Below, one piece after another: positions 6,701 through 39,800 of a DNA stretch of 64,000 nt; the stretch's first letter is position 1; every line of letters begins with the position of its first letter. The DNA comes from an uncultured virus (IMG/VR IMGVR_UViG_3300027659_000029) (lineage: Duplodnaviria; Heunggongvirae; Uroviricota; Caudoviricetes). The stretch lies in IMG/VR virus record IMGVR_UViG_3300027659_000029. One strand, written 5' to 3'. The notes below the pieces were generated by a model. That model saw only the letters and a program-made list of their open reading frames with translations, was not told the DNA's origin and did no database searches. A program made the translations under genes and the position numbers.

Positions 6701-6877
6701 ATGACAAAAGAAGTAAAAATGAAAGAGAAGAGCATTTACGGAAATGTGTTAACATATCCTAATTGCGAAACTTCAGAAAAATTTGCACACTTAATTCAAA
6801 AAATGACATTCAGCGAAAGAGATATAACAATTATCAAGATGCTTGGTTACAAAGTTACAATTAAAAAATTATCATAA
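6701..6877 (+). CDS. Small hypothetical protein
   Basis: Likely start MTKEVKMKEKSIYGN just after the previous stop. Confidence 0.65.
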   Translation: MTKEVKMKEKSIYGNVLTYPNCETSEKFAHLIQKMTFSERDITIIKMLGYKVTIKKLS

Positions 6878-9597: not shown

Positions 9598-10143
9598 TTA
9601 TATAAAAAAATCTTCAGGGAGTTTTGAAGCAATTTCGCTGATTAGATGTGAGAATATTCTTGCTCTTTTGACCGCCACCTCCCAAATTGGCATTCCTTTT
9701 GCTTTCCCCCAGTTATTATCGTAATCAGAATGACATTGACTACACATAAGAAGATGGTTATGCTTGTTGGTGGCTACAGACGGGAACTTACTTTTTGGAA
9801 CGATATGGGCATGAGTACTTCTATTTACCCATACCTCTGTGGATTTTAACTGATACAGCACAGAAGTGCCACAATTTTCGCATATTGGTCTTGGGTTAAG
9901 TAATGCCTTTAGTGTTTGGAAATCAAACCATTTTTCAAGCAATTCACGTTTTTCTGTTTCTATTGCTTTATCCTCATCACTTTTTTTGGGGGATACTCTT
10001 GGTATTTGAATAGGTTTCATTTCTTCTACAACTTCTTCAATTGTATTCCATTTTTTACAAGCTCTGCATTGACCGCCCCATTGAACTGTGTGATTCTTAC
10101 AACTACTGCACTCAAAATACTTTTTTGCTTTTTTTTGAATCAT
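9598..10143 (-). CDS. RadA/Sms-type Zn ribbon fused to an HNH-like Zn-finger nuclease domain
   Basis: FECSSCKNHTVQWGGQCRACKKWNT (RadA-like) plus CENCG...HAHIVPKS...NHLLMCSQCH (HNH-like). Confidence 0.7.
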   Translation of the reverse strand: MIQKKAKKYFECSSCKNHTVQWGGQCRACKKWNTIEEVVEEMKPIQIPRVSPKKSDEDKAIETEKRELLEKWFDFQTLKALLNPRPICENCGTSVLYQLKSTEVWVNRSTHAHIVPKSKFPSVATNKHNHLLMCSQCHSDYDNNWGKAKGMPIWEVAVKRARIFSHLISEIASKLPEDFFI

Positions 10144-10330
10144 TGTTTTTAGATTTATAAACAACATAAATCAATACATTGTTTGGGTTAATTATTCCAC
10201 GTTCACCAACTTCTTGTAAATACAAATCTATTTTTGATTGTACATACTGATTTGCTTCTCTGCCTATTGGGATGTGGTGAAGTACCTTATTATTGATGGT
10301 AAATATTAATGTTGTTTTGGGTGGATACAT
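10112..10330 (-). CDS. Small hypothetical protein
   Basis: 72-aa ORF abutting neighbours. Confidence 0.55.
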   Translation of the reverse strand: MYPPKTTLIFTINNKVLHHIPIGREANQYVQSKIDLYLQEVGERGIINPNNVLIYVVYKSKNNDSKKSKKVF

Positions 10331-10555
10331 TTAAAATGGTATTTTTTCTTTTTTTATTAATTCTACGTTTTCATTTATTTTTTTCTGTGGGATAAATTCA
10401 GATGAGATCCACCATCCAATAACCCCATTTTTAATTGTTTTTTTTATAACTACTCCTCTTTTAATATTTATTACTTTTTTACATTTAGTCATTATATATT
10501 TTGGATGTTTTTTAAATACCCATTTATCTTCATAACTTATTGATATTATTATCAT
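10331..10555 (-). CDS. Small basic hypothetical protein
   Basis: Likely start MIIISISYEDKWVFK; ORF track start at 10597 overlaps the cassette end. Confidence 0.65.
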   Translation of the reverse strand: MIIISISYEDKWVFKKHPKYIMTKCKKVINIKRGVVIKKTIKNGVIGWWISSEFIPQKKINENVELIKKEKIPF

Positions 10556-10587
10556 TACCGAGATGTGTTTATAGATGTAGCCAATAG

Positions 10588-10812
10588 TTAGGCACAATTA
10601 AGAAGTTTACCTTCCAATCTACCTATAACTTCAACCCATTGGCTGCTTTCAATATTCATCGCTTCGTCAGTTTGTCCTATGTCTGCAAAGTTTTTACATA
10701 GTTTGGCTAATTCTATTGCAGCCAATGTGTTTTCCCTCTTGGATAGTTTTCCAGTATAAGGGTTGTTGTCAGATGAACGCATCATCAAGTTTACTAATTT
10801 TAGTGTTGTCAT
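10588..10812 (-). CDS. Hypothetical protein in cassette A
   Basis: 74-aa ORF bounded by inverted ends gttaggcacaattaa / ttaactgtgcctaac; its stop codon lies in the core site. Confidence 0.75.
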   Translation of the reverse strand: MTTLKLVNLMMRSSDNNPYTGKLSKRENTLAAIELAKLCKNFADIGQTDEAMNIESSQWVEVIGRLEGKLLNCA

Positions 10813-10829
10813 AATTTATAATTAACTGT

Positions 10830-10925
10830 GCCTAACAACGTATATAAGAGATACGCCAATAAGCGGTTTTACATTTATTTAAGTTTGTCGGTGGCGTACC
10901 TCTCATATACGCAGCCGTTATAGGC
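10830..10925 (+). mobile_element. attC-like recombination site 1
   Basis: GCCTAAC-aa-[cgtatataagagatacgcca]...[tggcgtacctctcatatacg]-cagcc-GTTATAGGC; 20-bp arms with 2 mismatches. Confidence 0.75.
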
Positions 10926-10937
10926 AAATAAATTTTA

Positions 10938-11141
10938 CTACCTTTTGAAGTAACTCTTATTATCCCCTTCGTAATTGTCATATCCCATTGCCATTGCTAT
11001 GCACAAAAATCTGCTTCTGCCATTGTAGCTTTGCATATAATCTATTGCTTCATACAATACCTCGTTCTTTTCTTTTAAGCTAAGTGCAGCATATTTTTTG
11101 TTTATTTCCTCGCTTGTGTAATATTTTGTTTTCGTTTCCAT
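10938..11141 (-). CDS. Hypothetical protein in cassette B
   Basis: 67-aa ORF bounded by 22-bp inverted ends (20/22 match). Confidence 0.75.
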   Translation of the reverse strand: METKTKYYTSEEINKKYAALSLKEKNEVLYEAIDYMQSYNGRSRFLCIAMAMGYDNYEGDNKSYFKR

Positions 11142-11159
11142 AATCCGTAAAATTTATCA

Positions 11160-11293
11160 GCCTATAACATACGCTATACAAAAGTGGGGCTGTGTGCCAA
11201 ATCTGTACAGTTGTGCATCTAATTTGCTTTTGTGCGGTAAGCAAGGGTTGTGCATCTTAATCCCCACCTTCGTATAGCGTCAGCCGTTAGCAG
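11160..11293 (+). mobile_element. attC-like recombination site 2
   Basis: GCCTATAAC-at-[acgctatacaaaagtgggg]...[ccccaccttcgtatagcgt]-cagcc-GTTAGCAG; 19-bp arms with 2 mismatches. Confidence 0.75.
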
Positions 11294-11299
11294 AAAGCA

Positions 11300-11863
11300 C
11301 TACCTGCGTATTCCAAAATCAGATTTTCGTAATTTACACATACGACCATCTGTCTTATGATGAAATACAATACCCTCAATGTCTACTTTCTCTAAGTAAT
11401 CTTTTAGGTTTTCAAATGTCATTGGGTTAATCAATCCTTGCAAAACTTTTGCTCCGTGCCTTACCAAATGATGTCCTTCTATTTTTTCGGGATTGCCTTG
11501 TACTTTTTCGCCTATTAATTCATAAGTGCCATCTTCAACTTTGCCAAGTTTAGCAAGTGAATTGAAGCCTTCAAAAAAGTATTTATCCTCGTTTTTATCG
11601 TGGCTACATTTTAACCAATGTGGATGATGTCCTGTTATTAAATCTGCTTCTTGACAAGGTATTGCACCATCAGGAACTTGTCTGCCTTTCTTCACATCGT
11701 ATCTTTTGTAAAGTTCGCCATTAATAATAGCGGTTGATGTACCATCATATTTTCTTGTTGGTATTCCATCTGTAAAAACCCATTTATTTTCAGGGTTTAC
11801 TTCATTGATTACCCTGCCCAAATCTTGCGAGTCTTTCTTAAATAATGTGCTGATTTTTTTCAT
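11300..11863 (-). CDS. RNA-ligase-like nucleotidyltransferase (DUF5565-like)
   Basis: TRKYDGTS (KxDG motif I), GTYELIGEKVQGNPE, EGIVF (motif IV), terminal K(L)R. Confidence 0.7.
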   Translation of the reverse strand: MKKISTLFKKDSQDLGRVINEVNPENKWVFTDGIPTRKYDGTSTAIINGELYKRYDVKKGRQVPDGAIPCQEADLITGHHPHWLKCSHDKNEDKYFFEGFNSLAKLGKVEDGTYELIGEKVQGNPEKIEGHHLVRHGAKVLQGLINPMTFENLKDYLEKVDIEGIVFHHKTDGRMCKLRKSDFGIRR

Positions 11864-11911
11864 TTGTATTTAATTTATCATTTATATTCATATCAATATT
11901 TTAATGAGATT

Positions 11912-12730
11912 TTAACAATAAGGGCTGATAATACCTATAAGTTCTTTTATTGATATTGGGCATGAGCTATTGACAATTACAAATTGGTCAAAAACTGCAT
12001 TTGCAATTTTAGTAGCCATCATTTCTTTTGGATCACGCCCTGACATCTTTTCTACTTTTTCTGCGGTAACCTTTCCTACTTTATTTTCAGATATTGTTTT
12101 TTTGATAGCTTCTTTTCGTTCCGTTGGAGAGGTGATTGTTTTTTGCAATTTCACCACCGTTGAGACTGCAATATTCCCTTTTTCAACTTCGTCTTTCACC
12201 TCTTTGGATTCATTGGCATATGATAGCATTTGTGACACATACGAATACGTTTTACCTACTTTACTTGCTACTTCTGTTGGGGTGTATCCCAAGTTTACTA
12301 ATCGTCTGAAAAGTTCAGCCATTTCGTGTGGAAGAAGTGGTTTTGAATCTTGGGTGGTGAACATCTGAATTATCCTTTGTTCTTCACTTGTTTTCTTACC
12401 ATTCACAATAGCTTTGAATACAACATCATTTCCTTGCTCTTTAAGTAGAAATAATGCTTGTACTCTACGATGACCTTCAACGAGTAAGAAACGCCCATCT
12501 TCAAGCACGTCTACTCTACCTGCTACCGTTTGACCATTTTCAATAATTGATTGCGCTAATCCCTCAATATCACCGTAATCTGTTCGGACGTTAAACCCTT
12601 CACGAATTACAAGTTTATTGAGTTGAATTTTTACAATTTCTTCACCTCTTTGTGAATTTTTACGGATCGTTTCGACATTACCTAACATGTCTTGATTTAA
12701 TTCTTTGATGTCTAGTGTTAATTGACTCAT
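11912..12730 (-). CDS. ParB/Spo0J-family protein with HTH
   Basis: FNVR.DYGDIEGLAQSIIENG, LVEGHRR arginine patch, HTH GYTPTEVASKVGKTYSYVSQML. Confidence 0.85.
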   Translation of the reverse strand: MSQLTLDIKELNQDMLGNVETIRKNSQRGEEIVKIQLNKLVIREGFNVRTDYGDIEGLAQSIIENGQTVAGRVDVLEDGRFLLVEGHRRVQALFLLKEQGNDVVFKAIVNGKKTSEEQRIIQMFTTQDSKPLLPHEMAELFRRLVNLGYTPTEVASKVGKTYSYVSQMLSYANESKEVKDEVEKGNIAVSTVVKLQKTITSPTERKEAIKKTISENKVGKVTAEKVEKMSGRDPKEMMATKIANAVFDQFVIVNSSCPISIKELIGIISPYC

Positions 12731-24881: not shown

Positions 24882-27800
24882 TTATTTTTTTTGTTTATCA
24901 GGTACTAACCATCTTAACCCAAAATTATTCATAGCCCTATTACCCCACGTTGATCTATCCACTTCTCTGTTACCGTCTGTCATTTGTTGTACATCACTTA
25001 TTGACCCTAAATATGGTAATTGAGGGTTAACAAATGGAAGCCCCATATTGTTATTTAATAAAGGCACACTCATGCTTAACCCTGCTCTTATATCTGATAA
25101 CAATGCTAACCCTGCGGCTGTTGTACTTACTTTTGATTTAAATTCTTCATCAGACATATTATCACCTTCCTCTTTGCCTTTCTCCATTCCCATTACAAAT
25201 CTACGTTTATAAACTTCAATTGAATTACCTGCCACCAATGCAGGATAAAAAGCAGGGCTATGCTCTACCATCCTTTCAGCTACTTTGCCTGCGTACCCTT
25301 CTTTTGCCAAATCTACACCAAATAATTCAAGTTCACCTTGTTTCATTGCACCTTTCTTTCTATTTCGGTCATCTTCATTTTGGAATCCACCAAATTTCAT
25401 ATTACCCATTGCCGCTAATGCAAATATTACTAAACCTAATCCACCTTTACGATAACATCTAAAAATTAAATCAATATCTTCTTGTGGCATTTCGGATATA
25501 TGTTGCTTGATTGCATCTTTAAGTGGGATACCTTGCTCAATCCCTTTTCTTGCCCCTTTTATGTTTTCTATTAAATGTCTGCCCCCACCTGTGAATGCTC
25601 CAAGCATATATTCTACAATTGCCTCTCTTGCAATGTTGACAGGTGTTCTTACAATTGGATATTTTGTTTTAAATGCTGCTGAAGCAATTTTGCCTAATTC
25701 TGTATTCTTTTTACTTTTGTCAACGCTATAACTTGCGGGTTCGCTATACCCAAGAATTCTTGTTATCTCATTCATTTTTGAGGTTACATAGTTATCTTCT
25801 TGATATTTACCTCTTAAAAAGTTGACATAACTTTCATTTATGCTACTTAATATTACATCTGGGTTTGAAATATCATCCCCACGTCTTGCTTTCTGTTCAA
25901 GTCTTGCGGTATACGCTGCTGCAAATTCAGCTCTAGCGGAGAAACTTTTAAGGAATCCATGAAGTCCACCCATTAAACTAATTCCCAACTCCCATTTTTC
26001 AAATGTTGTTCTGTCTTTCCAAGATACTTGTACGTCATTTCCAAGCAATGCATCTAATTGATTTGCTCCTTTAATCATTGCATCCATACCGTCTTTAAAT
26101 GATTTCCCACCTATCCAATTATATAAGTTATTTGATTGGTGGTCAAGCAATGCATTTTGGGCAATTGTTTTTGAAAAATTAAAGTTATTTTGCAATTTTT
26201 TGTCATTAGGGGATGCATCTAATGCGTCTTTTGCATCTTTCAGTCTTAATAAAGATACATCAAGTTTTACTTGTGTCTTTTCCCACATTTTTCTCATCCC
26301 TTCTTCGCCTATATTAAAATAATGAGCCTTATACCTATGAGCCTCTTGCCTCCAAGAGAATGGAGCTTCGCTACCTGCATAAAGACTTAAAGTAGGATTT
26401 AAAATATGTGCTACATTACCAAATGTAGCATTGGTTATTGTATTTAAAGGTTGTTTTGTTAAGCCTGAGAACCCAACTGCCGCTGCTGTAGTTAGATGAC
26501 CTATTAACCCTTGAATATAAATAGTACCTGCCATTGATCCTGCTTTCTCATACCATTTTTTATTTTGAGATTCAGCCAATTGTTGCTCCCTTCTATATTT
26601 AGCTTCAATTTTTTTAGCTTCAATTTCTAATTTTACAACTTCTGAATCAGTCTTTTTTCTTACAGGTTGTGGGCTATCTGTAAACTCTTCCGCATCAATT
26701 TTTCTTTGTGCTTCTTTCCCTCTATTTACAAGATTTTTTTTGTGACGAATTAGCAATATATCTTGTTCTGCGTTTTTCATATCACGTTCTAACTGCCAAA
26801 TGTTATTTGATGAAGATTTTAATATATCTTCAAATTGAGTTACATCTAATGATGATACTCTTAATTTTTTCAATGATTTGTCAAGTACATCTTCAATTCT
26901 TTGAGATGTTTCAATATCAACTTTTGATAATTCTATATTTGTCTTGAAGTTTTGTAAATCTTTTATAGAAGAAGATGATAATGAATTATCTTTTAATTTT
27001 TCATCAACAAGATTTATTAATTTGTCAATTCTTGAATTATGTTCTTCGGCAATTCTTTTTTTCACATCTCTCTCATCTTTTGGAGACCTATCAATTCTAA
27101 TATTTCTTTTATTTAATTCTGTTTTAAATTCATTTCTCAATAAGTCTTCTTCTGTTGTGGCTTGTCTTTTTTCTTGTTCAGTTCTTGCGTCTACTTGATT
27201 TTTTTTAGCCTTTTCTATTTTTGTTTCAAGTTTTGCTATATTTCTTAATTCGTTCCTTGCATCATTTATTTCTTTATTTATATCTTTTTGTGTTGACAAT
27301 TTGTAATCACCTGATTTCAAATAAGCATCTCTTATTTGTTGATCTGTCATTCCTTTGTATATTGATTGCAAATCTTCTTTCACATTTTCAAATACATCTT
27401 TACCACGAACTCCATTATCAATATGGTGATTAATAAGTTTATTTACTAACCCTTTGGCTACCGCTTCAATACTTAAATTATTATCTGAATATGATTTTAT
27501 TTTATTTAGTATGTCATTTTTATCAAGTCCACTTATAATATGATCTGTAATTTCTTTTTCTTTTAATGTACTAAATCTTGCATCTTTATACAATACTTCA
27601 CTTATTGCTTGTGCAAGTGTACTTCCTTTTTCTACTAATTGTGCAATTGCTTCAACGGCAAGGTTTCTTAACCCAAAAGTCAAATCGGTGGCAAGTGTTG
27701 AATTGTCAATTTTTAATTCCCTAATTCTATCCGCAATATCTTTACCTGATTTGCTAAGTGTTTTTTCTCTTCCTGTTTTTTTAGATTCAGTTTGTTTAAT

Positions 27801-30800
27801 ATCCTTTGCCCTTCTTTTTACTTCTTCATCTACTGCTGTATCAAAATCCTCTTGACTCCACTTTGGCAATTCTTTTGTTGCTGATTCAATTAATTTTTTA
27901 TGTTCACTCGCTATTTTAAGTATTGCATTTTCTTGCGCTTCAGTTAGTGGCTTACCTCCTTGATTACGAATAATATTCATTCTTCTAATAACAAGATTGT
28001 TATCAGCATCCATTTTAGCTACCATTTGTCGTATATAGAATGATCGCCCAGCTACTTTACCTGTTTCAGATAATACTTTATCGACATTAAGTAATTCAGC
28101 TTGTAATACTTTAGCTTGTGCTAATGCTAACTCTCTATTTGCATCATCAAGTGATGACATTCTATCATTAAGTTTCCCAATTTCTTCATTGATATGTGTA
28201 CGATAATATGACATCACCGCTAAATCTTCATCTGTTGGATTAAATGTTGACTTACCTTTTTCATCAATTTCATTTTCAATCTTTTCTCTCCAATCACTAA
28301 TTCTGTTTTTTGCTACGTCTGTAAGTGATTGACCTTTTTTAGCCGCATTAGCAAGGCTGTTTATTGCACCTTTTACACTTTCATCCCATGTAACAACATT
28401 CCCAGTACTATTATATTTTTTTGCAAGTTCTTCCGCAACTGTGATATCATTTTTATTGATATGGGTATACTCGCTATCCGCTTTTTCTTGTGGCGTTTCA
28501 CTTATTTCGTCTGTGGCATCCACCTTTGGCACTTCCGCAATTTTTAAAGCACTATCAATTTCTTCTTGTGAATTACCTTTTCTTTTAAGTATGGACTCAA
28601 TCTCTTTGTCATTTGCTCCTTCACCCCTTAGTTCATCAATGAATGATGTAAGTTCTTTTTTAGGTACTGCGGTGAATAATGGCAAACCACTTTCAACTTG
28701 TGATTTAAGTTCTGGTGTGATGTCTATGGAGTGTTGGGTGGAAGTTACTTCTTTTATTTCATTGTCTTTTGTTGTTTTTGCCCTTCGGGCTTCAATATAT
28801 GATGTAAATACCCCTAATTTATTTCCATTACCGTCAATAACAGTATAAATACGGTCAGACTTGAACCTATTTGGTTGCGTCTCTTCAATTTTTGATGGCT
28901 TACTTAAACCAAGTTTCTCGCCACTATTTATTTTAACCGTTTTCGGCTCTTGCTTAAACAAACTCTTAGCTACATTACCTACTATACCTAAACTTCCTTC
29001 TGTTGGACTTCCATAAAATCCCTTCATGCCTTTGCCGCCTAATTTTAACCCATCACCACTAAATATACTTTTACCTTCATTTATAACTTTGTCCGCTATT
29101 TCTTTCCCAACATAATCAGTAAGTTCCTTTTCATTTCTCATTAACCCTTTATGTTCTTCCCCATACAAATCCGTTGTGGTAACATCAAATGTATCGTCCT
29201 CTAAATGATTGATTTCAATTCTTTTTACTTGCTTACTCAAATCATACCTTTCATTCTGCTGCTCTCCTGTACTCCAAGCAATCTTATCAGCCCCTTGTTT
29301 TACTGCTTCTTTAAGGGCTACTTTTAAGCCTAATTTAGTCCATGCGTTTGTGTCGGTTACGAAGGGGGCAGATGAAATAATTGATTCTTTTGATTTACTA
29401 ATTGTCCAATTTGCAGTATTTTTAAGTCTTTCTTGTCTTATTATATACTCTTTAGCTTCTTTTTCTGAACCAAAATACCCATCAATAACACCTTTACTAT
29501 CTAATACGATAAACTCCTTAACATCAAACCCTTCTTTCTTTCCTTTTTGCCCCCAATCGGTTTGTACTTCTTCCAAAAACAATACCTTGCTGCCATCTGC
29601 TGCTGTACGGGTGTTCATGCGAAGATGAACAAGTATGTTGGGTTCGTCAAAGTGAGAAGATTTGAATTTTGCGGGGACTTCGGCTATCCCACTATTCCTA
29701 ATTTCGACTGTGCTTGGTAATTTACTCCTTATATCATCAAGTTTCCAACCAAGTCTATAATGTTCATCCTTTTGTGATTCAGTTGGCATATCTAAACCAA
29801 GTTCAGCCTCTATTTCTTCCCTACGTCTTACTATGGCATTATGTTCATCAATCAATGGTTGCTCCTTATTAGGCAAAGTAACCAATACCTCTTTGTAGTT
29901 TTCTTTTTCCCCTTCTAATTGGTATTGAGAGTATTTGGTTTGTGAAAAATACCCTTCTTCCTCATATAATTCTTTTGCCTCTTTTAATGCTTCTTCTTTT
30001 GTATTTGCAAATATATTTGTTGGGTTGCCATCGCCATCAAGAACTATCCAATCACCTTTTTTCAAATTTTCATTTCCAGCAATTATTTCTTTGTCAAAAT
30101 TCTTACCATCATATTGCTTGACTACTGCTTCAAAACCCTCTCTTTTTACCAATTCAACAACTTGTATTCTATTATCCTTTAAGTATTGTTGTATATCTGT
30201 TTTAGATACAGAACCTTCTTGTTGTGCCAACCAATTAGATAACCCAGTCCACTTAGCCTCATCGCCCTTTCCAAATTTTTCAATCCATTGCTTTGCAGGT
30301 AATTTATCTAATTTTGTTTCTGAAATAGTTTTTTCAAGTGGGGAGTAAAACCCATTTACAACATCAGGTGCGGTTGGCTTTACTTTAACTTTCTCACCAT
30401 TGAACATAATTGTTTTTTCACCTGCTTTTTGTTCTTGTTTTTTCAATTTTAGGTATTCTCCTTTTGCAAGAGAGTTTGACGAACGATTAAGTAATTCTTC
30501 AATTGTAAGTGATTGCAAATCGGTGGTGTCTTTTAGCCCAAGTTTTTCAGCAAACCATTTTTTAACTGCTTGTATAAAATTCTTGACTTTACCGCCACTT
30601 GCCTCTTCAAATTTCTTTGCATTGATAGGTGCTTGTAGATATGCCCACATTTCATTTCTTACCCTTTCACGATATTCGTTTGGTGATTCACCTTTTTCCT
30701 TACGATAAACATCACTACTTAAATCAATTCTTTGTTCGCCAATCCTTACTACTTTTTGTCCACTTTCTATTTGGTCAATGGCTTCCTTTAAAATACTATC

Positions 30801-33800
30801 AAACCTTCTTAGGATTGCGGTGGCTTGTACATCACCACCATCACTTGCTATCTTAATTGCTTGTTGTTGTACATGTGTTAATTCGTGCCATGTTGTTTCA
30901 GGTGTTAACGCATCAGGGTTCAAATATATTTTACCATTATGATAGAATCCAAGTACATCGCCATTTGGCTTTTTTATTTCATTTACATTCCCATATCCAA
31001 TTTCTTTCAATTTGCTTGAAAATTCCGAAAGCGGTGCAAATACTTTTATATTTAATCCTTTTTGTATAAAGTCTGTTATTTTTTCTACTTGTTTTTGTTG
31101 ATTTGGAGTTGTTTTATTTTCACCTACTGCATTTGTGGCAAATTGTGTCCGTTCTCCTTCTTCTGAAATATTTTTTTCAATTACTTTTTTAATTCCTTCA
31201 GTTGCTTTTTTTATAATTGCATCTTTATCTGTTTTCCCTTTTGCATTTCTATAATCAGATACTGCTTTATCAAAAATTTCTCTTACTCCTTTTTCATTTA
31301 TACTTCTATCAAATAAAGCTGCTGCAAGTTTTGATTTTTCACCTTCTTTTGCGGTGGCTTCTGTATCTACTTTACTATTTGCTTGTTCAAGTACGTCCGC
31401 ATTTCTAGATGCTGATTTCAAAAGTCTTGCATCATCCTTTAAATTAGAAACAATGTCACTTTGCACTTCCGCCATTGCTTGTGTATCTAATTCAAATTCT
31501 TGACCAAACATCCCTTGCTGAACTGATACATCCGCATTTTCATTCCCAATAGACCTTTCCGTTAATACCGCAAAACGATTAAGTTTATCTTGACTTGCAT
31601 TTGGGTTATTTGCGTATTTGGCTACTGAATTTCTAAGTTTTGCTTGATTTTCTTTTTTTACATTTGATAATGCAATGGCTGTATTCATTTTCATATTACC
31701 AGTTGCCACTTCTTCAAACATATCATCACTCAACTTGGATAATGCCAAACCTTCTTTTGCAACTTTACTATTTGGAGCAATCAGTCCTTTCATTAATTCT
31801 GGGTTCTCTCTTATGACCTTTGCCGCATCAACTGAAGTCCCTTTGCCTTGTTTTATATTTGTTCTTGCGGCCACAACCATTGCATCTTTTGCTGTTGGTG
31901 CATCAATAAAAAACACGTTCATATTTTCCACGTTATCTTTCATTGCTCTTTCTGTTCGATGGTGTCCATCAACAACATAAATTTCACCTTTACCTTTACC
32001 TAATTCATTATCTACATCTCTCCATACACCAATAGCACCTGCGTCATTAGGATCAAACTTATCTTGTATTTGTTCGTTTTCATTTGTGCCACTTTTATTT
32101 TTAGACGCTTTGTATTGGAATACTTTTGGCTCAACAATAAGGCTTTCTGTTGGTAATGTGGCAACTTTAATGCCTGAAGCTACTATTACTTGGTCGGCTT
32201 CTTTGTCTGCTTGATTGAGTCTAATTTCGCTTTTACTTTCTGCTTTACTTTCTGCGCTTGTAAGAATAGGTGTAATTTCTCCGATTCTTCTTGATGGTTG
32301 TAGTTGTTCTTTTTCATTTTCGTTATTTTTAAGTTGTTCTTTTGTGGCATTTTCTACTTTTTTTTGTTCAGTAGGGCTTACCATTTCAATTGATTCATTC
32401 GACTTAAAGTGATTACTTATATCTTCTTCGGTGGAATATTTTTTTATTTCTCCATTTATTAATGGTTTATACCCACCATTTAATAAATCATAAGCCCTAG
32501 CTTCTCTTACTTGTACTGATTTTTTTTCTAAAATAGCTGCATCAAATACTACTATATTTTCAACACCTGCCTTGTTTCTAAGCGTTATATCCTCATCTGT
32601 AAATGATGCTGCATCAAACCCTTTTCTTTTTAAATTGTCAAATATTTTAGATTGTTCTTTTTCGTTCAAAGCCGTATTGAACCTATCATCTACTAATTCG
32701 TGCAATTTCAATTCATCATTTACAACTATACCTTCTTCTTCAATTGCTTTACGAAAATCTTTTTCAGATGCTACTTTTGATTTTTCTATTTTATATTTTA
32801 TCAAATCACCACCATTACCTTTAGCATATTCACCTCCTTGATTTGCATCTTCGGTGACGTATATTCTACCAGATTTATCTCCGTACTCGCCACCATGATA
32901 AACAGTAATATATTCTTTTTCAATTTTCAATTCATCTTTATTTGCATTTATACCACCACTATTTTCTTTTAGTGTTTCCGATTTAATGCCTAATTCATCT
33001 AATATTGATTTCTTTATTTTATCTATAAATTCTTTTGCGCTAGGAACTTCTTTCTCTAATTTTCCATTTAAAATATCGTTAATAAATTCTTTTTTAGAAA
33101 GCGTCTGTTTCCCCGTACCACTTCTTGTGTCTATCCATTCAAGTTTTTCGGTATTAGGATTATATTCAGCCCCCCAATCAGCTAGTAAACCATAAATACC
33201 ATAATCATCCGTTTCGTGTTCATCTTTTAAAAGCCTATTAAATACTTTTGATATATCCTTATTGCTTTTTACATCTATTACATCACCATTAGCTTCTTTT
33301 AGTGTTTCTGTTGATTTACCTAATTTTATATCCGTAATTATTGGGAGTGTGCCGTTAGTTTTTATTTGATTTGCTATAGTTTCAATTTCATTTAATTTTG
33401 ATTCAAGCCCTTTGATATTGTTATTTATTAAATCAAGGACTAAGTCAACTGCTAACTTTTGTTCTTTTGTATATGTAGGGATTGCTTCGTATTCACTTCT
33501 TATTCTATCAAGAATAGATGAATTGAATTTTTCAATATATTCTCTACTATCTACTGCATCACTCCATTTTAAGTTTGTTTTTTCAAACTCTTCTATTGTT
33601 TTAATAGATTTATGAATAGGCGTGTACCCTTCTTTACTTTTAGTAATCCAATCTCTAAGTTTTTTAACTTTTTCCATTAAATACCCAATATCGGGTCTAT
33701 CCCCTCTTGATGATAATTCCCGCAGTATATCACCTGCGTTTTCAATTCGCTCTCTCCATACTTGCGCTTCCCCCCACAAACTTTTTGTACTAATGGTTCT

Positions 33801-36800
33801 TTCTGCGGTTGCATCTTGGATATCAAATGCTGTGCCGAACTTTACACCACTTATTTTTTCCTCCTCACTCAGCTGTTGCTTGGACTTAGGAGTTTCTGCG
33901 ATGGATTGTTCAACTGCTTTGATTTTATTATCCCAAAAAGACGTATCAGAAGATATAAAAACTCCTTTTTCGGAAATAAACTTTCCCTCTTCTTTCCCTC
34001 CTTCTTCAAAATCGGCTAATTGTTTTTGCTTATTGTTTTTATAGGATTTTAATAAAGCCTCATAATCGGCTTTTGTGGCAGAAGTAATTATTGGGTTTTC
34101 TCTTGTGCCTGTTAATTTATTTCTTTCCTCTTGACCAATTCCTTCTTCTCTGAGCCTTGTTTTTATTACATTTGCTAAATCTGCATCCACATCCCCTTTT
34201 GCACCACTATTCTCCTCATCACTCAGCTGTTGCTTGGACTTAGGAGTTTCTGCGATGGATTGTTCTTGTAATTTATCTAAATCAAATATTAAATAATGGG
34301 TATCTCCATCAACTTTTCTTTTTACCCCATCAAAACCTTGTTCTATTAGTTTTTCAGCACGTTCTTTTTCTGAATACTTTAATAAAGGAAAATATTCTTT
34401 ATCGGTAGCAAGTTTTAATTTATCAATATTAATTATTTTACTAATTATATTTTTACCTTTTGCTCTTGCCCCCATAGGAGAATATTCATTAGTAGTAAAC
34501 CAAGTACCTTCTGGTCTGCTCTTAATATTACTTAAATCATTTTGCGTATGATGATATATTAATTTTTCTCCCTTTTGTAGCTTTACATCTCCCCCTACAC
34601 CACTACCTTTCTCCTCCTCACTCAGCTGTTGCTTGGACTTAGGGACTTCTGTAAGGGATTGTTCTACTGCTTTGTTGTCAAAATTATTATCAATAAAACG
34701 AATTGCATCTCTATGTAGCCCTTGTTTTTCTAATTTAGATATAACTTCTTCTTTGGTAGTTGCTCCATCTTTAATTGCTGAATTAATATACTCTTGTCCT
34801 TTTGCAATCTTATCATCAAATGATACATCTTTTTCTATAAACACAGGAATTAACTTCTCTCCTTTTTCCCTTGCAACAACTGCTCTATTTCTGCCCTCTT
34901 GACTAAACTTGCCATCTTTAGTAGATATAAATGGCATATCAATTTTATTCCCATCATTTATAGCTTCATTTATTTTATTTTTTTTATCTTCTATTATATT
35001 AGCATCTTCTTTTGTCTTTAACCCCTCTCTTACTTTTTTTAAATATTGATCTGGGGACATCATTACAACTTCACCGCTTACTCCTTTATAAAAATAATTA
35101 TACCCATCATCTTTAAGTAAAACGTCTAACCCACTTATTCCTGTTTTTTTAGGATTAAATATTCCTTTGTAATCTTTCACATCTCCCCCTACACCACTAC
35201 CTACTACCTTATCCTTTACTTCTTGGGTGGGTAGGGATTGTTCTTTTTCAAAGTTTTTTCTTAGTGCTTGATACGCTTCTGCCCTAACTTCCATAGGTAC
35301 ATAATTCATGTATGTATCTTCCAAATTAGAAATAGCCCTTTTTTCATCCCTATCATTTAATGTTTCATTAAATAACTTTGCTAACCCTTCTTTTATATTT
35401 TCCCCTTTATATTTTTCTTGATGCTTTTTATCTATTTCATTTAATAAAAAGTTCCCATAATCACTAACTACTCCCCCTGCTGCTGCTTCGGCTTGGGTGG
35501 GTAGGGATTGTTCTACTGCTTCCAGATTGTCTAAATTATATACTTCTACTTTTATTGTATTTTCCCCATTGTTTATAGCGTTTTGTGTTTTATGGTGTCC
35601 ATCCATTAAATATTTATTACCTTTAAAAATAATTACGATTGGTTGTTTTATATCTCTTTGCTGTTTATTTAAAAGAGTTTTATCAAAATGTTTATATACA
35701 TTTGGTTGTGTTGGAATCAGTTCTTTTATATTGACTGTTTCTATTTTTGATTTATGTTTCCCATAATCAAATCCTAATACATCTCCTTTTTCGTGGTCAA
35801 TATTTAATAATTCTTCTGGTAACTCTTGATATTCTATTACTTTTTTATTCCAATTTATTGGTATTTCTTCATTACTTTTCACATCTCCTACACCACTACC
35901 TTCTTGGGTAGTTGCTTTGAGGGATTGTTCTAATACTTTTATAATGGCATCGGAATCACCTAATTCAAATTTTATTATTTCCCTTATTTCTTTGTCGTTT
36001 TTACCCTCATCACGAAGGTCTTTTACAATGTCATTCATATCTGATGACATATCCTTGCCTAAATCACCAACAACATCAAACTTATGTGCTGAATTACTCA
36101 TTTCAGCCAATTCTTTACTTGATAGTTTACTTACTTCTTTACCACTTAATAAGTCCTTTAAAACTGAATTTGTAAAATCGCCTAAAGTTAGATTTTGGAA
36201 TTTTTCCGCTGACATATTTCCAAATCCTAAAACACCTTTCATGGCATTGTACAACTCAGTAATATATTTTACAAAATTTCTTTTTTGCGCTTCGTTTACA
36301 AATAATTCTCCTTTATCACCTATTGCTTTTGCAAGAGCCTCATCAGCAATAGACTCTTTAATAGCGTTAGAATCACTATGGGATTCATTTACTTTATATT
36401 TACCCGTTGCCTTGTCTATTATAAAAGCATCATCCCCATATATTTGTTCAGATAACTTTCTATATTTTAGATTATTTATAACCTTATCATAATACCTTGA
36501 ATTATTAGTATCTATAATTAAGTCAATCCCCTTTTTATAAATTTTTGGGTTGTATTTTTTAGCGTATTGATTCCATACATGACCCATTTCATGTATAGGA
36601 GTATTATTATTTAAAAATTCTGGATTAAGATATATCTTTCCCGTTTCACCATCTACAACCCCAAATGTTTTATCATTTTTATTTAATAGCTTTTGATTTT
36701 TAAGATCTTTATCTTTTTCCGCATATGCTACTTTATCAATAATTACATCAATATTAGGAAACGCCTTGTTTACCCATATAACTAATTTTTGTTGTGCAGT

Positions 36801-39800
36801 TATTTGTGGGTTTTTGAAAAAGTTAATAATGCCTACTTTTGCTTTTTGCATTAAATTAGCAGTATTACTTCCAGAAATATTTTGAGTATATGGTTCTTTA
36901 GATGCTTCGCTAACAACGTAACCTTGTTTTTTCAATTCTTGAATGACCGCTTCTTTTGAATTGAATGTAAGTACATTCCCTGATTCTTTAATTGATCCAC
37001 CATTAGCATTATAAAACTTACCATCTGTTTTAGTAAAAACACCTTTTTTATCAGTAAATTGTAATTTAGTTGCACCCTTACCTAATTCGGCAGTATAATT
37101 ACCACTACTATCATGTGAAATAGATATTCTTGAAGTTTCTTTTGTTCCTTTTACTTTTACATTTTCGTCTACAGATGTAGTAGATGTTTTAACATATGTA
37201 TCCATCATTTCGGGTGATAAATGATGCATTTGTGATGTTTCACTATATAATCCTATTGGGAATCCTTCAACACCAAAAGCATAATTTGGATGTCTTTCTC
37301 TATTAACATCTTCAATAACTTTAGAATTAGGGTCAATTGCTAATAATATCATTGGTTGACCAGCATCAATACCATCCATTATTGGCTCACTTAATGTCTT
37401 TGAAATCCCTTCTGTATTAATCCCTTTATCCTTTAATATTTTAGCTAATGGATTTACTTTTTCAGATGATGCAGTACCCTCTGAAGATAAGAATACCATA
37501 TTCATTATTTCTGACTTAGTTCCCAAACTCATATCAGATTTATCCCCATTAAGTATTGCTTCTAATTCTGTAAAATTTTTTGCTTTTAACAATAATGGTA
37601 AATATTTTTCTTTTGGCGAAACTCCTGTATTTTTATCTTTTTCCTCGCCCCACTTTATTGTTTCTAATCTGCCTTTTACACCATTTGCTCCATGTATTAT
37701 TTCAAAAACTTTACTTTTCTCATCAGCGGTTAAATTAACATCCATTAATCTGAATGCTTCTTTAGCAAAGGCTTCATTACTTTTTATGCCATCTTCTCCC
37801 ATTTTGTAGATAGTTACTAACCCAAATTCTTTATTGTTGGGTATAGCGTTTTCTATCCTTTGCTTTTGCTCATCTGTTAAATTAAGATTTTCAAAATAAT
37901 GTGCTTTAAGTTCTTTGCCACTTATTTTTTTAGCTGATTTTGCTGCATTAAGCATAGCACTTGCAGCACCAGCCTTTACTGCTGCCCACCCATATATTTT
38001 TTGACCAGTTTTTAATGTTCCATCTATTAAATCATTAAGTGATTTAAAAGGATACCCTATACCACCCTCATCTCTGATAGTTTTTTCAATAGGGTTGCCA
38101 TTAGCATCTAACTCTGCTACTTTTCTGTCTCCTGTTCTTAGTGGGTCGGACATACCAAGACCTACTTTTTCACCTCTAAGCCAATCGGACATTTCTATTC
38201 TTAACTTGCCCATTAGGGTTGCTTCTGGCCTTGTATCTGTTGGGCTAACTTCGATTTTTTGTTTAGGAACATCAGCATCCTGAGGTTCGGTCATTGTAAC
38301 AGGACGGTTTTGCGTATTATTATCCTCAATTGCAGCTCTGTCAAAAACCCCTTTTACTTCTTCATTTGCTTGTCTTAACGCTTCTACATCTTGGTCATAT
38401 AATGCTTTTTCAACTTTATATTTATCTAATTCTTTTTGATAATTTTTATTAGAAGTGCCGTCTTTTTTTGTTTTGCTTGGTTTTTTAGGTTCTTCGGCAT
38501 TGCTTATGTCTACTTGAAATTTGCCAGAATGATTCTTTTTAAACTGCTCTAATTTACTCTTTACCTTATCATTCACTATTTTCTTCTCTTCACCAAATAA
38601 TTTATTTTCAACTTCTTTTTTAAGTTCATTTACTTGTTTTTGAAGTTTGGGTATAAGGGCATCTGATTCAGCTTTTGTTTGAGATTCGTATTTTTTTATT
38701 AGGTTATTGAGGTGATTACCTTTTCTTACCCTTCTGCCATTTAAAGTGGCTTCATAAGTACCGTCTTCTTTTTTCTCAACAAGATAAGTTTTATTATTTT
38801 CGTATTGAATTAATTTTGCTTTTATTTCAACATTTTTCAAATCTTCAAGTGCAGTTTGCTCTATTAGATTTATTTCGTCAACGGCTTCTTGTAGCCTAAT
38901 TTCTTGTTCTGACTTTGTTGGTGTTGTTCCATCAGTTTTACTAACTCCTTCTTGGGTAGTTTGCGTAGTTTTTCCTTTGCGTTCATTTTGTTTTAGTATT
39001 TGTTCAGCCTCTTGCTCACTCAATTGTTCCATTGTGTGAAGTGCTGATTGGTATTTTAATTCTTCAATTACAGATGGGGTGGAATTTAATTTTATAGAAC
39101 CGTCTTCTTTTACAAGTACCGCTCTTTCATTTCCTTTTTCGTCTTTATCAAAACGTACTTCTGAATACACTTCACCATTAACTTGTATGCCATCAATATT
39201 ATCCGCTAATCTTACAGGTGATTCGTAATCGACATAAGGTTGATCAGGTCGCAATTCAATTATCTTATTACCTGATGTAATTGTAGCCTTGCCGCCTTCA
39301 TCAACTTCAACAATACCAGTTATTGCCTTGCCCCCAACATTTACAGTTAATGTTTCTCCTTTTCTTTCTGTTATTGGAATTTTTACTATAGGTAATTCTT
39401 CTTCTTGTTTTGGCTGTTCAGTTATTGGTTCATTTTTAGTTTCAATAGAGGTTTTATTGCCACTACCTACTTCTTTGTCTATTATTTCTTTTACTTTTGG
39501 GATTGATAGCAAATATTCACTTTTGTCTTTAGCTCTTTCGTAATCAAGATTTTGCTTTGGAGTTAATTCATCAACAAGTGATGATTCATTCTTAACTATA
39601 TACTCATCAATTTTAGCTTTAGTTTCTAAATCTTTTTGGTTAGTATCTACATCAATACTACCTGCTTCATCAATTTTAGATAATTGCCATTCAAGGTTTT
39701 TTATTTTTGCTTTCTGTTTCTTATTTGCATCTTTAAAAACATTTTCCGAAAAAGGATAAGTACCGTCATTAAATGCTTTTTCAGAATCACTTAATGCTTT

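What the first reader, a model, noticed from the sequence alone, without database searches (positions are those of the whole stretch)
10587..11293. Integron-like cassette array in a phage: attC-like hairpins, self-complementary cassette ends, no integrase in window
Seen: two sites share one geometry, YAAC + 2 nt + 19-20-bp arm ... arm + CAGCC + GTTA, while arm and loop sequences differ. All four arm mismatches are A:C on the top strand, so G:T on the bottom strand; one is at arm position 13 in both sites. Each intervening unit carries one ORF and starts and ends with matching inverted sequence: GTTAGGCACAATTAA/TTAACTGTGCCTAAC (14/15) and GTTATAGGCAAATAAATTTTAC/GTAAAATTTATCAGCCTATAAC (20/22). 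Established: integron cassettes are bounded by GTTRRRY and RYYYAAC cores that pair in the excised circle, and IntI recombines the folded bottom strand. Atypical here: end complementarity extends far beyond 7 bp, no obvious extrahelical bases, and, if the 2-nt/5-nt spacer asymmetry marks the + strand as top strand, the ORFs face opposite to the usual cassette orientation, in line with the phage operon. Inference: a phage gene-capture system using a tyrosine recombinase in trans.
Basis: partly seen in the sequence, partly recalled or inferred. Interest (0 to 1): 0.88.

Follow-up and report, generated by a model that had tools for sequence, protein, structure and literature searches.

The report
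Phage integron-like gene cassette array
This stretch of a freshwater phage genome is a fragment of an integron-like array, in which small genes are separated by folded DNA sites; related phages carry the same kind of array beside a dedicated recombinase, which suggests that phages swap accessory genes this way.

Summary
Two hairpin sites (window 10833-10920 and 11165-11289) and the complementary ends of the two genes between them are real. Genes here lie on the minus strand, so the G:T wobbles sit on the gene-sense strand.

The sites belong to a large family: 19-bp covarying arms, invariant TAAC/GTTA, and G.T at arm position 13 in 28 of 30 and 60 of 60 sites. A model built without the window scores them at 72.6 and 56.1 bits (next best 16.1).

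Across 113 cassettes in other contigs, each cassette's ends form a 15-bp helix, GTTA-N6-G-N4 against N4-T-N6-TAAC.

In 47 viral loci encoding a 275-aa Xer/IntI-like tyrosine recombinase, all 83 sites lie upstream of it and co-oriented; none lie downstream. A conserved TAAC-N3-5-TATATGTA site precedes the gene.

A true relative of this phage (L122) has such a platform elsewhere and lacks window 10331-11911.

My reading is a recombinase-less fragment of a new integron-like system. Its recombinase lacks the IntI extra domain, and the cassette genes are inverted relative to classical integrons. Recombination itself is inferred, not shown.

The parts
11286..11886 (-). RNA-ligase cassette, 5'-truncated. 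Gene 11300-11863. The 3' end half-helix is GTGCTTTCTGCTAAC at 11300->11286. There is no upstream hairpin and no GTTA start in the window.
   Evidence: PF17720 7.8e-7; phrog_14301 RNA ligase 8e-70. Homology to 52 other contigs is limited to this unit and breaks at 11285-11287 in L001, L002, L003 and L006. In L001/L002/L006/L069 the unit starts GTTAGCAGATGGCAC, which is complementary to its end.
11165..11289 (-). attC-like site 2, long class (125 nt). Sense strand reads TAAC + GGCTG + 19-bp arm + 72-nt loop + arm + AT + GTTA. Arms at 11171-11189/11262-11280. G.T wobbles at arm positions 10 and 13.
   Evidence: R1 89.4 bits (it was a seed). Independent model R2 72.6 bits, E 7e-13. DNA fold -21.7 kcal/mol, z -4.3.
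10917..11168 (-). Cassette 2: ORF2 (10938-11141, 67 aa, no family). The ends GTTATAGGCTGATAAATTTTAC and GTAAAATTTATTTGCCTATAAC pair over 22 nt, with a T.T mismatch at position 10 and G.T at position 11.
   Evidence: row winrc. No reliable Pfam family (one weak sub-threshold match, CASP_C, E 0.005, 16.5 bits against a 28-bit cut-off); no PHROG family and no usable Atlas hit.
10833..10920 (-). attC-like site 1, short class (88 nt). Sense strand reads TAAC + GGCTG + 20-bp arm + 33-nt loop + arm + TT + GTTA. Arms at 10839-10858/10892-10911. G.T wobbles at arm positions 8 and 13.
   Evidence: R1 67.1 bits (seed). R2 56.1 bits, E 2e-9. DNA fold -15.1 kcal/mol, z -3.8. It is 76% identical over 88 nt to a site in G004/L020.
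10587..10836 (-). Cassette 1: ORF1 (10588-10812, 74 aa, no family). The ends GTTAGGCACAGTTAA and TTAATTGTGCCTAAC form the family-typical 15-bp helix with G.T at position 11. No hairpin and no attI-like site follow it.
   Evidence: Only weak Atlas leads, score 0.77 at best. A profile of 36 attI-like regions finds nothing here; the best window hit is E 0.31, elsewhere.
10331..11911 (-). Block that is present in the window but absent from the related phage contig L122: ligase, site 2, cassette 2, site 1, cassette 1 and an 88-aa ORF (10331-10597).
   Evidence: In L122 the ParB gene (87% aa identity) ends at 6819, and the homologue of window ORF 10112-10330 starts at 6821.

Best explanation
The region is a recombinase-less fragment of a phage-borne integron-like cassette array. 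Each unit is a small gene whose two ends (GTTA-N6-G-N4 and N4-T-N6-TAAC) are complementary. Units are separated by a hairpin whose inner arms repeat the same pattern (GCTA-N6-G.. / ..T-N6-TAGC). On an excised single-stranded circle, the cassette's 3' end, the hairpin and the cassette's 5' end would stack into one bulged hairpin. That hairpin has two pseudo-symmetric half-sites around an unpaired centre (5 nt against 1-2 nt), which is the R''-L''-L'-R' layout of an attC site. A small Xer/IntI-like tyrosine recombinase is encoded directly after such arrays in relatives and preceded by a conserved TAAC-N3-5-TATATGTA site. I infer that it binds the folded gene-sense strand and exchanges strands at the TAAC/GTTA core, so excising, inserting and reshuffling cassettes. 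Shown here: the anatomy, the covariation, the cassette-end rule, the genetic linkage to the recombinase, the presence/absence polymorphism and the context-independent spread of the ligase cassette. Inferred: that the recombinase acts on these sites, that the DNA rather than the RNA folds, and where the crossover lies. In this window the recombinase is absent, so the two sites could only be used in trans.
For: Family and structure. In 30 sites (A1), 93.8% of cells are paired against 62.0% in shuffles, 17 of 19 arm pairs show compensatory changes, and the covariation score is 0.71 against 0.15. TAAC/GTTA is invariant, and G.U at arm position 13 occurs in 28 of 30. In 60 further sites from recombinase loci, 93.9% of cells are paired and G.U occurs in 60 of 60 (that alignment was fitted to the model).

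Cassette ends. In 50 cassettes the mean helix is 15.0 bp, against 7.2 bp in 2450 mismatched start/end pairs. A helix of 10 bp or more occurs in 43 of 50 cassettes against 21% of controls. In 63 independent cassettes, position 11 is G.T in 51 of 63, positions 5-10 are Watson-Crick in 45-53 of 63, positions 12-15 in 42-50 of 63, and position 16 in only 6 of 63. The ends of the ligase cassette covary among homologues: GCAGA/TCTGC, TACGC/GCGTA, TGCGC/GTGCA.

Linkage to a recombinase. In 47 IMG/VR loci with the 275-aa recombinase, 83 of 83 model hits are on its strand and upstream of it. None are downstream, although 248,929 nt lie downstream and 161,764 nt upstream. 32 of 47 loci have at least one site, and 7 of the 15 loci without a site have under 260 nt of upstream sequence. 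A conserved TAAC-N3-5-TATATGTA motif lies about 50-60 nt before the start codon in the 36 regions aligned. The last cassette abuts it without a hairpin.

The recombinase. PF00589 3.2e-37. NF040815 XerA/integron integrase 210.5 bits (cut-off 220); TIGR02249 integron integrase 180.8 bits (cut-off 265).

Mobility. The window shares only the ligase with five whole site-bearing phage records. Homology to the window ends at the TAAC/GTTA core (11285-11287) in 4 of the 52 matching loci. G001 has hairpin A directly followed by the ligase, whereas L069 has hairpin A, a 97-aa cassette, hairpin B and then the ligase. L122 lacks the whole block and has its own array elsewhere. In two metagenomes, contigs share the 30 nt up to 11289 and then diverge.

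DNA rather than mRNA. In a Flavobacterium chromosome the same sites lie antisense to the flanking small genes.

Prior experiment. A site of the same geometry in Polaribacter phage P12002L was predicted as attC by HattCI (PMC9892861, section 3.4 and supplementary Table S3, read; located).
Against: No excision circle, deletion variant or recombinant junction was seen. The runs laid were contigs only and showed no joint that skips a cassette.

Only 1 of 5 whole site-bearing phage records encodes any tyrosine recombinase, and none was found in the window.

P12002L_attC1, the published site most like these, was the one of six phage sites that did not give a verified IntI1 recombinant (PMC9892861).

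The recombinase lacks the IntI additional domain.

Among ligases about 90% identical, neither the upstream nor the downstream hairpin is conserved. A single fixed crossover point would not predict that.

The window block as a whole is bounded by gene ends, not by GTT cores.

The G.T polarity on the sense strand, and genes that start inside hairpin loops, would also fit an RNA role in phages.
Confidence: 0.78

Rival explanations
1. RNA structures. In the polycistronic phage transcript each cistron's 5' and 3' ends pair, and the inter-cistronic hairpins are double-strand RNase (RNase III-like) processing or stabilising sites. The mosaic boundaries would arise only because selection keeps each cistron with its own two ends.
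For: All wobbles are G.U on the gene-sense strand. In phages, sites are always co-oriented with the genes. The pseudo-symmetric G.U pairs 11-13 bp from the centre would suit a dimeric dsRNA enzyme (inference). Start codons and A-rich leaders lie in the loops of long-class sites.
Against: In a Flavobacterium chromosome the same sites lie antisense to the neighbouring genes. The strict one-sided linkage to a tyrosine recombinase and a conserved terminal site has no RNA rationale. Start-codon position relative to the structure is not fixed. No Rfam family matches.
Confidence: 0.1
2. Recombination hot spots without a dedicated site-specific enzyme. Like the T4 promoter/stem-loop cassettes (PeSLs), the hairpins would be shared regulatory modules. 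Phage homologous or structure-specific enzymes (annealase, exonuclease, NinG/Rap, endonuclease VII) would exchange flanking genes at them.
For: The window and several site-bearing phages encode RecE-like, Rad52-like, NinG or EndoVII proteins. Hairpins assort independently of the ligase on both sides. Loops carry translation-start modules.
Against: Mean column identity between sites is only 51%, which is too low for homologous exchange. Breaks fall at a 4-nt core. NinG is present in only 2 of 5 records. This model does not explain the cassette-specific 15-bp end helix with a fixed wobble or the recombinase linkage.
Confidence: 0.08
3. Ends or targets of a single-strand (HUH) transposon such as the IS91 or IS200/IS605 families. 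These also use hairpins next to a conserved tetranucleotide.
For: In Flavobacterium G007, 3 of 4 inspected copies of an IS91-like element (tyrosine recombinase + Y2 transposase) start exactly after the ..GTTG core of such a site.
Against: The fourth copy has no hairpin, so the hairpin is a target and not part of the element. Y1 transposase is found in 0 of 5 phage records. No Y2 transposase follows the recombinase in L122.
Confidence: 0.03

Closest known systems
Integrons (IntI integrase, attI, attC cassettes) and CALINs, clusters of attC sites lacking an integrase
   Same: Cassettes are bounded by ..AAC and GTT.. cores. Each cassette's start is complementary to the inverse core at its own end. 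Sites are conserved in structure rather than sequence, with two imperfect inverted half-sites, an unpaired centre and a terminal loop of 5 to about 80 nt. One strand folds better than the other. A tyrosine recombinase of the Xer/IntI branch lies next to a distinct terminal site at one end of the array. Cargo is small accessory genes.
   Different: The recombinase is 275 aa and lacks the IntI additional domain. The R-type helix is 15 bp with a fixed G.T wobble instead of 7 bp. There are no bulged extrahelical bases. The arms are 19-20 bp. Cassette genes and the recombinase gene read in the same direction, with the recombinase after the array, so the ORFs are inverted relative to the sites. The hosts are phages of Bacteroidota, a phylum in which IntegronFinder 2.0 reported a complete integron only in Salinibacter ruber (PMC9024848, passages read).
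attC clusters reported in phage genomes (Qi et al. 2023, PMC9892861), including Polaribacter phage P12002L
   Same: P12002L_attC1 (TAAC + GGCTA + arm .. arm + AT + TGTTAGG) has the same geometry. It lies between two co-oriented methyltransferase genes. The model finds two more sites in that phage, at 38879-38936 and 39122-39245. Methyltransferase cassettes are also common here.
   Different: That study found 17 such clusters in 10,705 genomes with integron tools and did not describe this family, the 15-bp end helix or a linked recombinase. attC1 gave no verified recombinant with IntI1. P12002L has no homologue of the recombinase.
PeSLs of T4-type phages (PMC2839356 and PMC4122927; search listing and start of abstracts only)
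   Same: Repeated stem-loop modules flank small variable genes in phage plastic regions and are proposed to mediate modular shuffling.
   Different: By their titles and abstracts, PeSLs are promoter-terminator sequence motifs acting through homology. Here sequence is not conserved, each gene's ends pair with each other, and a tyrosine recombinase is linked.
Xer recombination on folded single-stranded phage DNA (CTX-phi type; recalled, not tested here)
   Same: A Xer-family recombinase would act on a site formed by folding one DNA strand.
   Different: That system integrates a whole phage at the host dif site. This one is an array of gene-sized units inside phage genomes.

Membership tests
Integron attC site | Inverse core ..AAC (R'') and core GTT.. 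(R') at the two ends | tested here: met
   AAC/GTT are invariant in 30 of 30 and 60 of 60 sites. The full RYYYAAC/GTTRRRY consensus is only partly met; for example GTTATAG and GTTATGT occur.
Integron attC site | The start of a cassette is complementary to the inverse core at the end of the same cassette | tested here: met
   A helix of 10 bp or more in 43 of 50 cassettes. The 15-bp pattern is seen in 63 further cassettes. It extends to 15 bp, well beyond the 7 bp of classical sites.
Integron attC site | Inner L''/L' boxes with extrahelical (bulged) bases that mark the recombined strand | tested here: not met
   The arms are continuous 19-20-bp helices without a conserved bulge. The strand asymmetry is instead G.T at arm position 13 (28/30, 60/60), a frequent C.A at position 4 (9/30; 28/60 unpaired) and a 5-nt against 1-2-nt central loop.
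Integron attC site | Recognised by the attC covariance model of IntegronFinder / HattCI | not testable with these tools
   Those models are not held here. A site of the same geometry (P12002L_attC1) was called by HattCI in PMC9892861.
Integron integrase (IntI) | Tyrosine recombinase carrying the IntI-specific additional domain | tested here: not met
   Alignment to VchIntIA (2a3v) falls in two stretches: query 7-175 to IntI 6-179, and query 200-272 to IntI 247-319. The query has 24 residues where IntI has 67. TIGR02249 scores 180.8 bits, below its 265 cut-off.
Integron platform | Integrase gene next to a primary site (attI) at one end of a co-oriented array of attC sites | tested here: met
   Met in relatives: 83 of 83 sites lie on one side, and a conserved TAAC-N3-5-TATATGTA site precedes the gene. 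Not met in the window itself: no recombinase and no attI-like match.
Integron platform | Recombination shown: excision circles, or insertion at G|TT | not testable with these tools
   Only contigs could be laid, and no skipping joints were seen. Indirect evidence: one cassette plus one hairpin more in L069 than in G001.
CALIN (cluster of attC sites lacking an integrase) | Two or more attC sites close together with no integrase nearby | tested here: met
   Two sites lie 245 nt apart. No PF00589 hit in 52 window ORFs. This holds only if the sites are accepted as attC analogues.
T4-type PeSL | Conserved promoter plus terminator sequence motif shared by the copies | tested here: not met
   Mean column identity is 51%, and conservation lies in pairing rather than sequence. 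No promoter test was run.
Known RNA families (Rfam 15) | Match at the family gathering score | tested here: not met
   0 matches in the window. The only weak hit is RAGATH-35 at 16.7 bits, against 38.9 needed.

The most novel reading that the evidence does not exclude
Bacteroidota and their phages possess a previously undescribed integron-like class. It has an additional-domain-less Xer/IntI-type recombinase and a TAAC-TATATGTA primary site. Its folded sites are built from two 15-19-bp half-sites, each marked by a G.T wobble instead of bulged bases. Unrelated phage families (crAss-like, lambdoid-like, Incheonvirus) use it as a common currency to trade anti-defence genes such as methyltransferases and RNA-repair enzymes. 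The window holds a stranded three-cassette piece of it.
Probability: 0.6. Interest if true: 0.9.

Novelty: new variant of a known kind. Interest (0 to 1): 0.82.

Why it matters
Integrons are the textbook gene-capture machines of bacteria. They are regarded as rare in Bacteroidota and only marginal in phages.

If these arrays work as inferred, phages of very different families share a site-specific system for acquiring and reshuffling accessory genes. The cargo seen here is methyltransferases, RNA ligase and an RNA-repair phosphatase domain. That would help explain the fine-grained mosaicism of phage plastic regions.

The system also offers a natural experiment on how a tyrosine recombinase reads folded single-stranded DNA without the IntI extra domain and without bulged bases. 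The covariance models and the recombinase profile made here give a direct way to survey it.

Tried and rejected
Known RNAs: Rfam gave 0 hits at gathering score, and one chance-level hit at E 4.3. No tRNA or tmRNA was found.

Whole genome of the window: not held, so an integrase outside the 64 kb cannot be excluded.

Relatives through ParB in IMG/VR: only one distant locus. The metagenome scan gave L122.

A universal partner protein: Y1 transposase in 0 of 5 records, NinG in 2 of 5, and any tyrosine recombinase in 1 of 5. blastp found nothing but the ligase shared between the window and the five records.

Ligase neighbourhoods in bacterial chromosomes: no sites lie next to the Flavobacterium ligase homologues. 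Sites occurred in only 3 small contigs of 52 loci.

An attI-like remnant after cassette 1 in the window: I suspected one from the spacing. A profile of 36 attI-like regions does not find it; the best window hits are E 0.31 or worse and lie elsewhere. No recombinase remnant was found by tblastn.

Laid contigs: no joint skips a cassette. Stretches without cover carry no weight.

Model R2 with default filters found nothing in the window. The sites appear only with filters off.

Function of ORF1 and ORF2: no reliable Pfam family (only a weak sub-threshold CASP_C match for ORF2) and no PHROG family; Atlas scores reach 0.77 at most.

Which hairpin travels with a cassette is not settled. The hairpin-less end of the arrays and ORFs that start in the upstream loop favour 'upstream hairpin + cassette'. 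The G001/L069 comparison fits either reading, and the ligase is found with different hairpins on both sides.

They count among the misses.
Full report
WHAT IS IN THE WINDOW

There are two hairpins with arms at 10839-10858/10892-10911 and 11171-11189/11262-11280. There are also two longer-range inverted repeats that bracket one ORF each: 10587-10601/10822-10836 and 10917-10938/11147-11168.

The ORFs lie on the minus strand. In order they are a ParB-like gene (11912-12730), an RNA-ligase-like gene (11300-11863), ORF2 (10938-11141) and ORF1 (10588-10812).

Read on the gene-sense strand, each site is TAAC + GGCTG + arm + loop + arm + 1-2 nt + GTTA. The four arm mismatches are G.T wobbles. As single-stranded DNA the sense strand folds about 3 kcal/mol better than the + strand.

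The window is a phage with a lysozyme, a terminase fragment, a weak crAss muzzle match and a 6371-aa ORF. No whole genome is held.

THE SITES BELONG TO A LARGE FAMILY

The ligase protein fetched 53 viral loci. Fifty-two of them matched the window by blastn. In 49 of those the match is confined to the ligase; L002 and L020 also match hairpin 1, and L016 also matches through hairpin 2. In 4 of them (L001, L002, L003, L006) the match ends at 11285-11287, on or one base from the TAAC/GTTA core; in the others it ends within or just past the ligase gene.

A simple scan for AAC-spacer-stem-spacer-GTT gave 85 hits in these loci, against 14 in shuffled copies. Thirty clear sites were aligned (A1). In that alignment:
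- 93.8% of cells are paired, against 62.0% in shuffles.
- 17 of 19 arm pairs carry compensatory changes.
- The covariation score is 0.71, against 0.15 in shuffles.
- TAAC/GTTA is invariant.
- Arm position 13 is G.U in 28 of 30 sites.

Sites come in three sizes, about 61, 88 and 125 nt.

The covariance model R1 found 45 hits at E up to 0.1 in 471 kb. All but one weak duplicate lie on the gene-sense strand, and only the two known sites lie in the window. Five whole viral records carry 12, 11, 6, 4 and 2 sites, in clusters.

A second model, R2, was built only from 60 sites of other contigs. It recovers the two window sites at 72.6 and 56.1 bits, with the next hit at 16.1 bits. This works only with filters off.

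THE CASSETTE-END RULE

I took 50 units lying between consecutive sites. Their first and last bases form a helix of mean length 15.0 bp, against 7.2 bp for 2450 mismatched start/end pairs. A helix of 10 bp or more occurs in 43 of 50 units, against 21% of controls.

In 63 further units from recombinase loci, after I dropped six near-duplicate loci (L135, L137, L141, L154, L156, L157), the pattern is sharp:
- GTTA, then positions 5-10 Watson-Crick in 45-53 of 63.
- Position 11 is G.T in 51 of 63.
- Positions 12-15 are paired in 42-50 of 63.
- Position 16 is paired in only 6 of 63.

So a cassette is GTTA-N6-G-N4 ... N4-T-N6-TAAC. The window's two cassettes obey this rule.

The inner arms repeat the motif as GCTA-N6-G / T-N6-TAGC. 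Position 4 is often C.A, which makes the 3' arm read TAAC. A cassette end, a hairpin and the same cassette's start would therefore stack into a pseudo-two-fold R''-L''-L'-R' structure around an unpaired centre. This last step is inference.

Homologous ligase cassettes keep the pairing through compensatory changes.

LINKAGE TO A TYROSINE RECOMBINASE

A metagenome scan with ParB found L122, a true relative of this phage. ParB is 87% identical at the protein level, and the recombination-gene region is 75-78% identical at the nucleotide level.

In L122, ParB is followed at once by the homologue of window ORF 10112-10330. Window 10331-11911 is therefore an insertion.

L122 has its own two sites between methyltransferase genes. 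These are followed by a 200-aa gene and then a 275-aa tyrosine recombinase. That recombinase's only homologue among the loci then held (57% identity) lies directly after the array of G004/L020.

A search with the two recombinases returned 47 viral loci. In them:
- All 83 model hits at E up to 0.001 are co-oriented with the recombinase and upstream of it.
- None lies in the 249 kb downstream.
- 32 of 47 loci have at least one site.
- 7 of the 15 loci without a site have under 260 nt of upstream sequence.

Each recombinase gene is preceded, about 50-60 nt before its start, by ..TAAC-N3-5-TATATGTA(T/A)T. The last cassette abuts this motif with no hairpin in between.

The enzyme scores best against the XerA/integron-integrase model, at 210.5 bits against a cut-off of 220. 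It lacks the IntI additional domain.

MOBILITY

The window shares only the ligase with five whole site-bearing records. Those five also share little with each other. They include lambdoid-like phages with NinG, Rad52-like and primase-helicase genes.

Cargo includes C5 and N6/N4 methyltransferases, an RNA-repair HAD domain, YopX and the RNA ligase.

G001 has hairpin A followed by the ligase. L069 has the same hairpin A, then a 97-aa cassette, hairpin B, and then the ligase.

In freshwater runs the window's arrangement recurs unchanged. In two runs other contigs share the 30 nt up to 11289 and then run on into unlike sequence.

DNA OR RNA?

In phages the sites are always sense, which would also fit an RNA role. 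In the chromosome of a Flavobacterium (G007) the model finds 12 sites; only 150 of about 8000 candidates were scored. Those inspected lie antisense to the neighbouring small genes.

Three of the four inspected copies of an IS91-like element begin exactly after the ..GTTG core of such a site. A group II intron reverse transcriptase sits in one of these arrays. A 345-aa recombinase with the best match to the phage enzyme (E 5e-67) lies beside two sites.

Together with the recombinase linkage, this favours a DNA-level site.

COMPARISON WITH WHAT IS KNOWN

The layout matches integrons in many respects, but it fails two defining tests: there are no bulged bases, and the recombinase has no IntI additional domain.

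If the strand opposite to the genes is taken as the top strand, the recombinase, primary site and array stand as in a classical integron, but the cassette genes are inverted.

Qi et al. 2023 (PMC9892861; abstract, section 3.4, Table 2 and supplement read) reported 17 attC clusters in 10,705 phage genomes. One of their sites, P12002L_attC1, has this geometry and lies between two co-oriented methyltransferase genes. It was the one site that gave no verified IntI1 recombinant. R1 finds two further sites in that phage.

IntegronFinder 2.0 reports a complete integron in Bacteroidetes only for Salinibacter ruber (PMC9024848, passages).

Four full-text searches found no description of this family, of its recombinase or of the 15-bp end helix. 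Papers outside the held library cannot be excluded.

VERDICT

The integron-like reading is supported by independent comparative evidence.

The window itself holds only a stranded, recombinase-less three-cassette fragment. The recombination chemistry, the strand used and the crossover point remain inferred.

Noticed in passing
window 24882-43997 (-): A single ORF of 6371 aa. One part matches a PHROG annotated as portal protein (1e-24); no Pfam family. The neighbouring 1650-aa ORF (46653-51605) has a weak crAss muzzle C-terminal match (E 5e-4). This suggests a crAss-like phage with a giant virion protein.
   Followed up: partly
L069 1-4991: A 4991-nt contig from a MAG bin has a 141-nt terminal direct repeat, so it assembles as a 4850-nt circle. 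The circle is made only of cassettes (two methyltransferases, the ligase, small ORFs) and seven sites. It could be a multi-cassette circle, a tandem duplication or an assembly loop.
   Followed up: partly
L015 726-2914: Three unrelated genes start inside the loop of the upstream long-class hairpin with the same leader (MKND[NK]..). They read through the 3' arm and the GTTA core in different frames. The loops look like portable translation-start modules.
   Followed up: partly
L176 3134/3135; L177 2466/2467 and 5720/5721; L180 about 1760: In a Flavobacterium chromosome a multi-copy IS91-like element (279-aa tyrosine recombinase + Y2 transposase) begins AACTAAACC.. directly after GTTG. In three of the four copies inspected that GTTG is the core of a hairpin site.
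   Followed up: partly
L178 4019-5242 (-): A group II intron reverse transcriptase/maturase (RVT_1 2.6e-42, GIIM) lies inside a chromosomal cluster of the sites. This recalls group IIC introns that target attC sites (recalled, not tested).
   Followed up: no
G008 (genome of locus L085), many small contigs: A Lutibacter MAG gives 43 model hits spread over many short contigs. This could be a large fragmented chromosomal array or binned phage DNA.
   Followed up: no
window 9598-10167 (-): A 189-aa zinc-ribbon/HNH protein lies just past the inserted block. No similarity to the NinG proteins of G001/G003 appeared in the blastp at 1e-5.
   Followed up: partly
window 11157-11267 (-): The loop of site 2 holds a 36-aa ORF that reads through the 3' arm and stops at TGATAA just after the GTTA core, 14 nt before the ORF2 start. 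It may be a decayed loop-encoded leader.
   Followed up: no
L125, L129, L131-L133, L165: Six recombinase loci with 6 kb of upstream sequence keep the TAAC-TATATGTA-like site but show no model hit. They may be empty platforms or carry more divergent sites.
   Followed up: no
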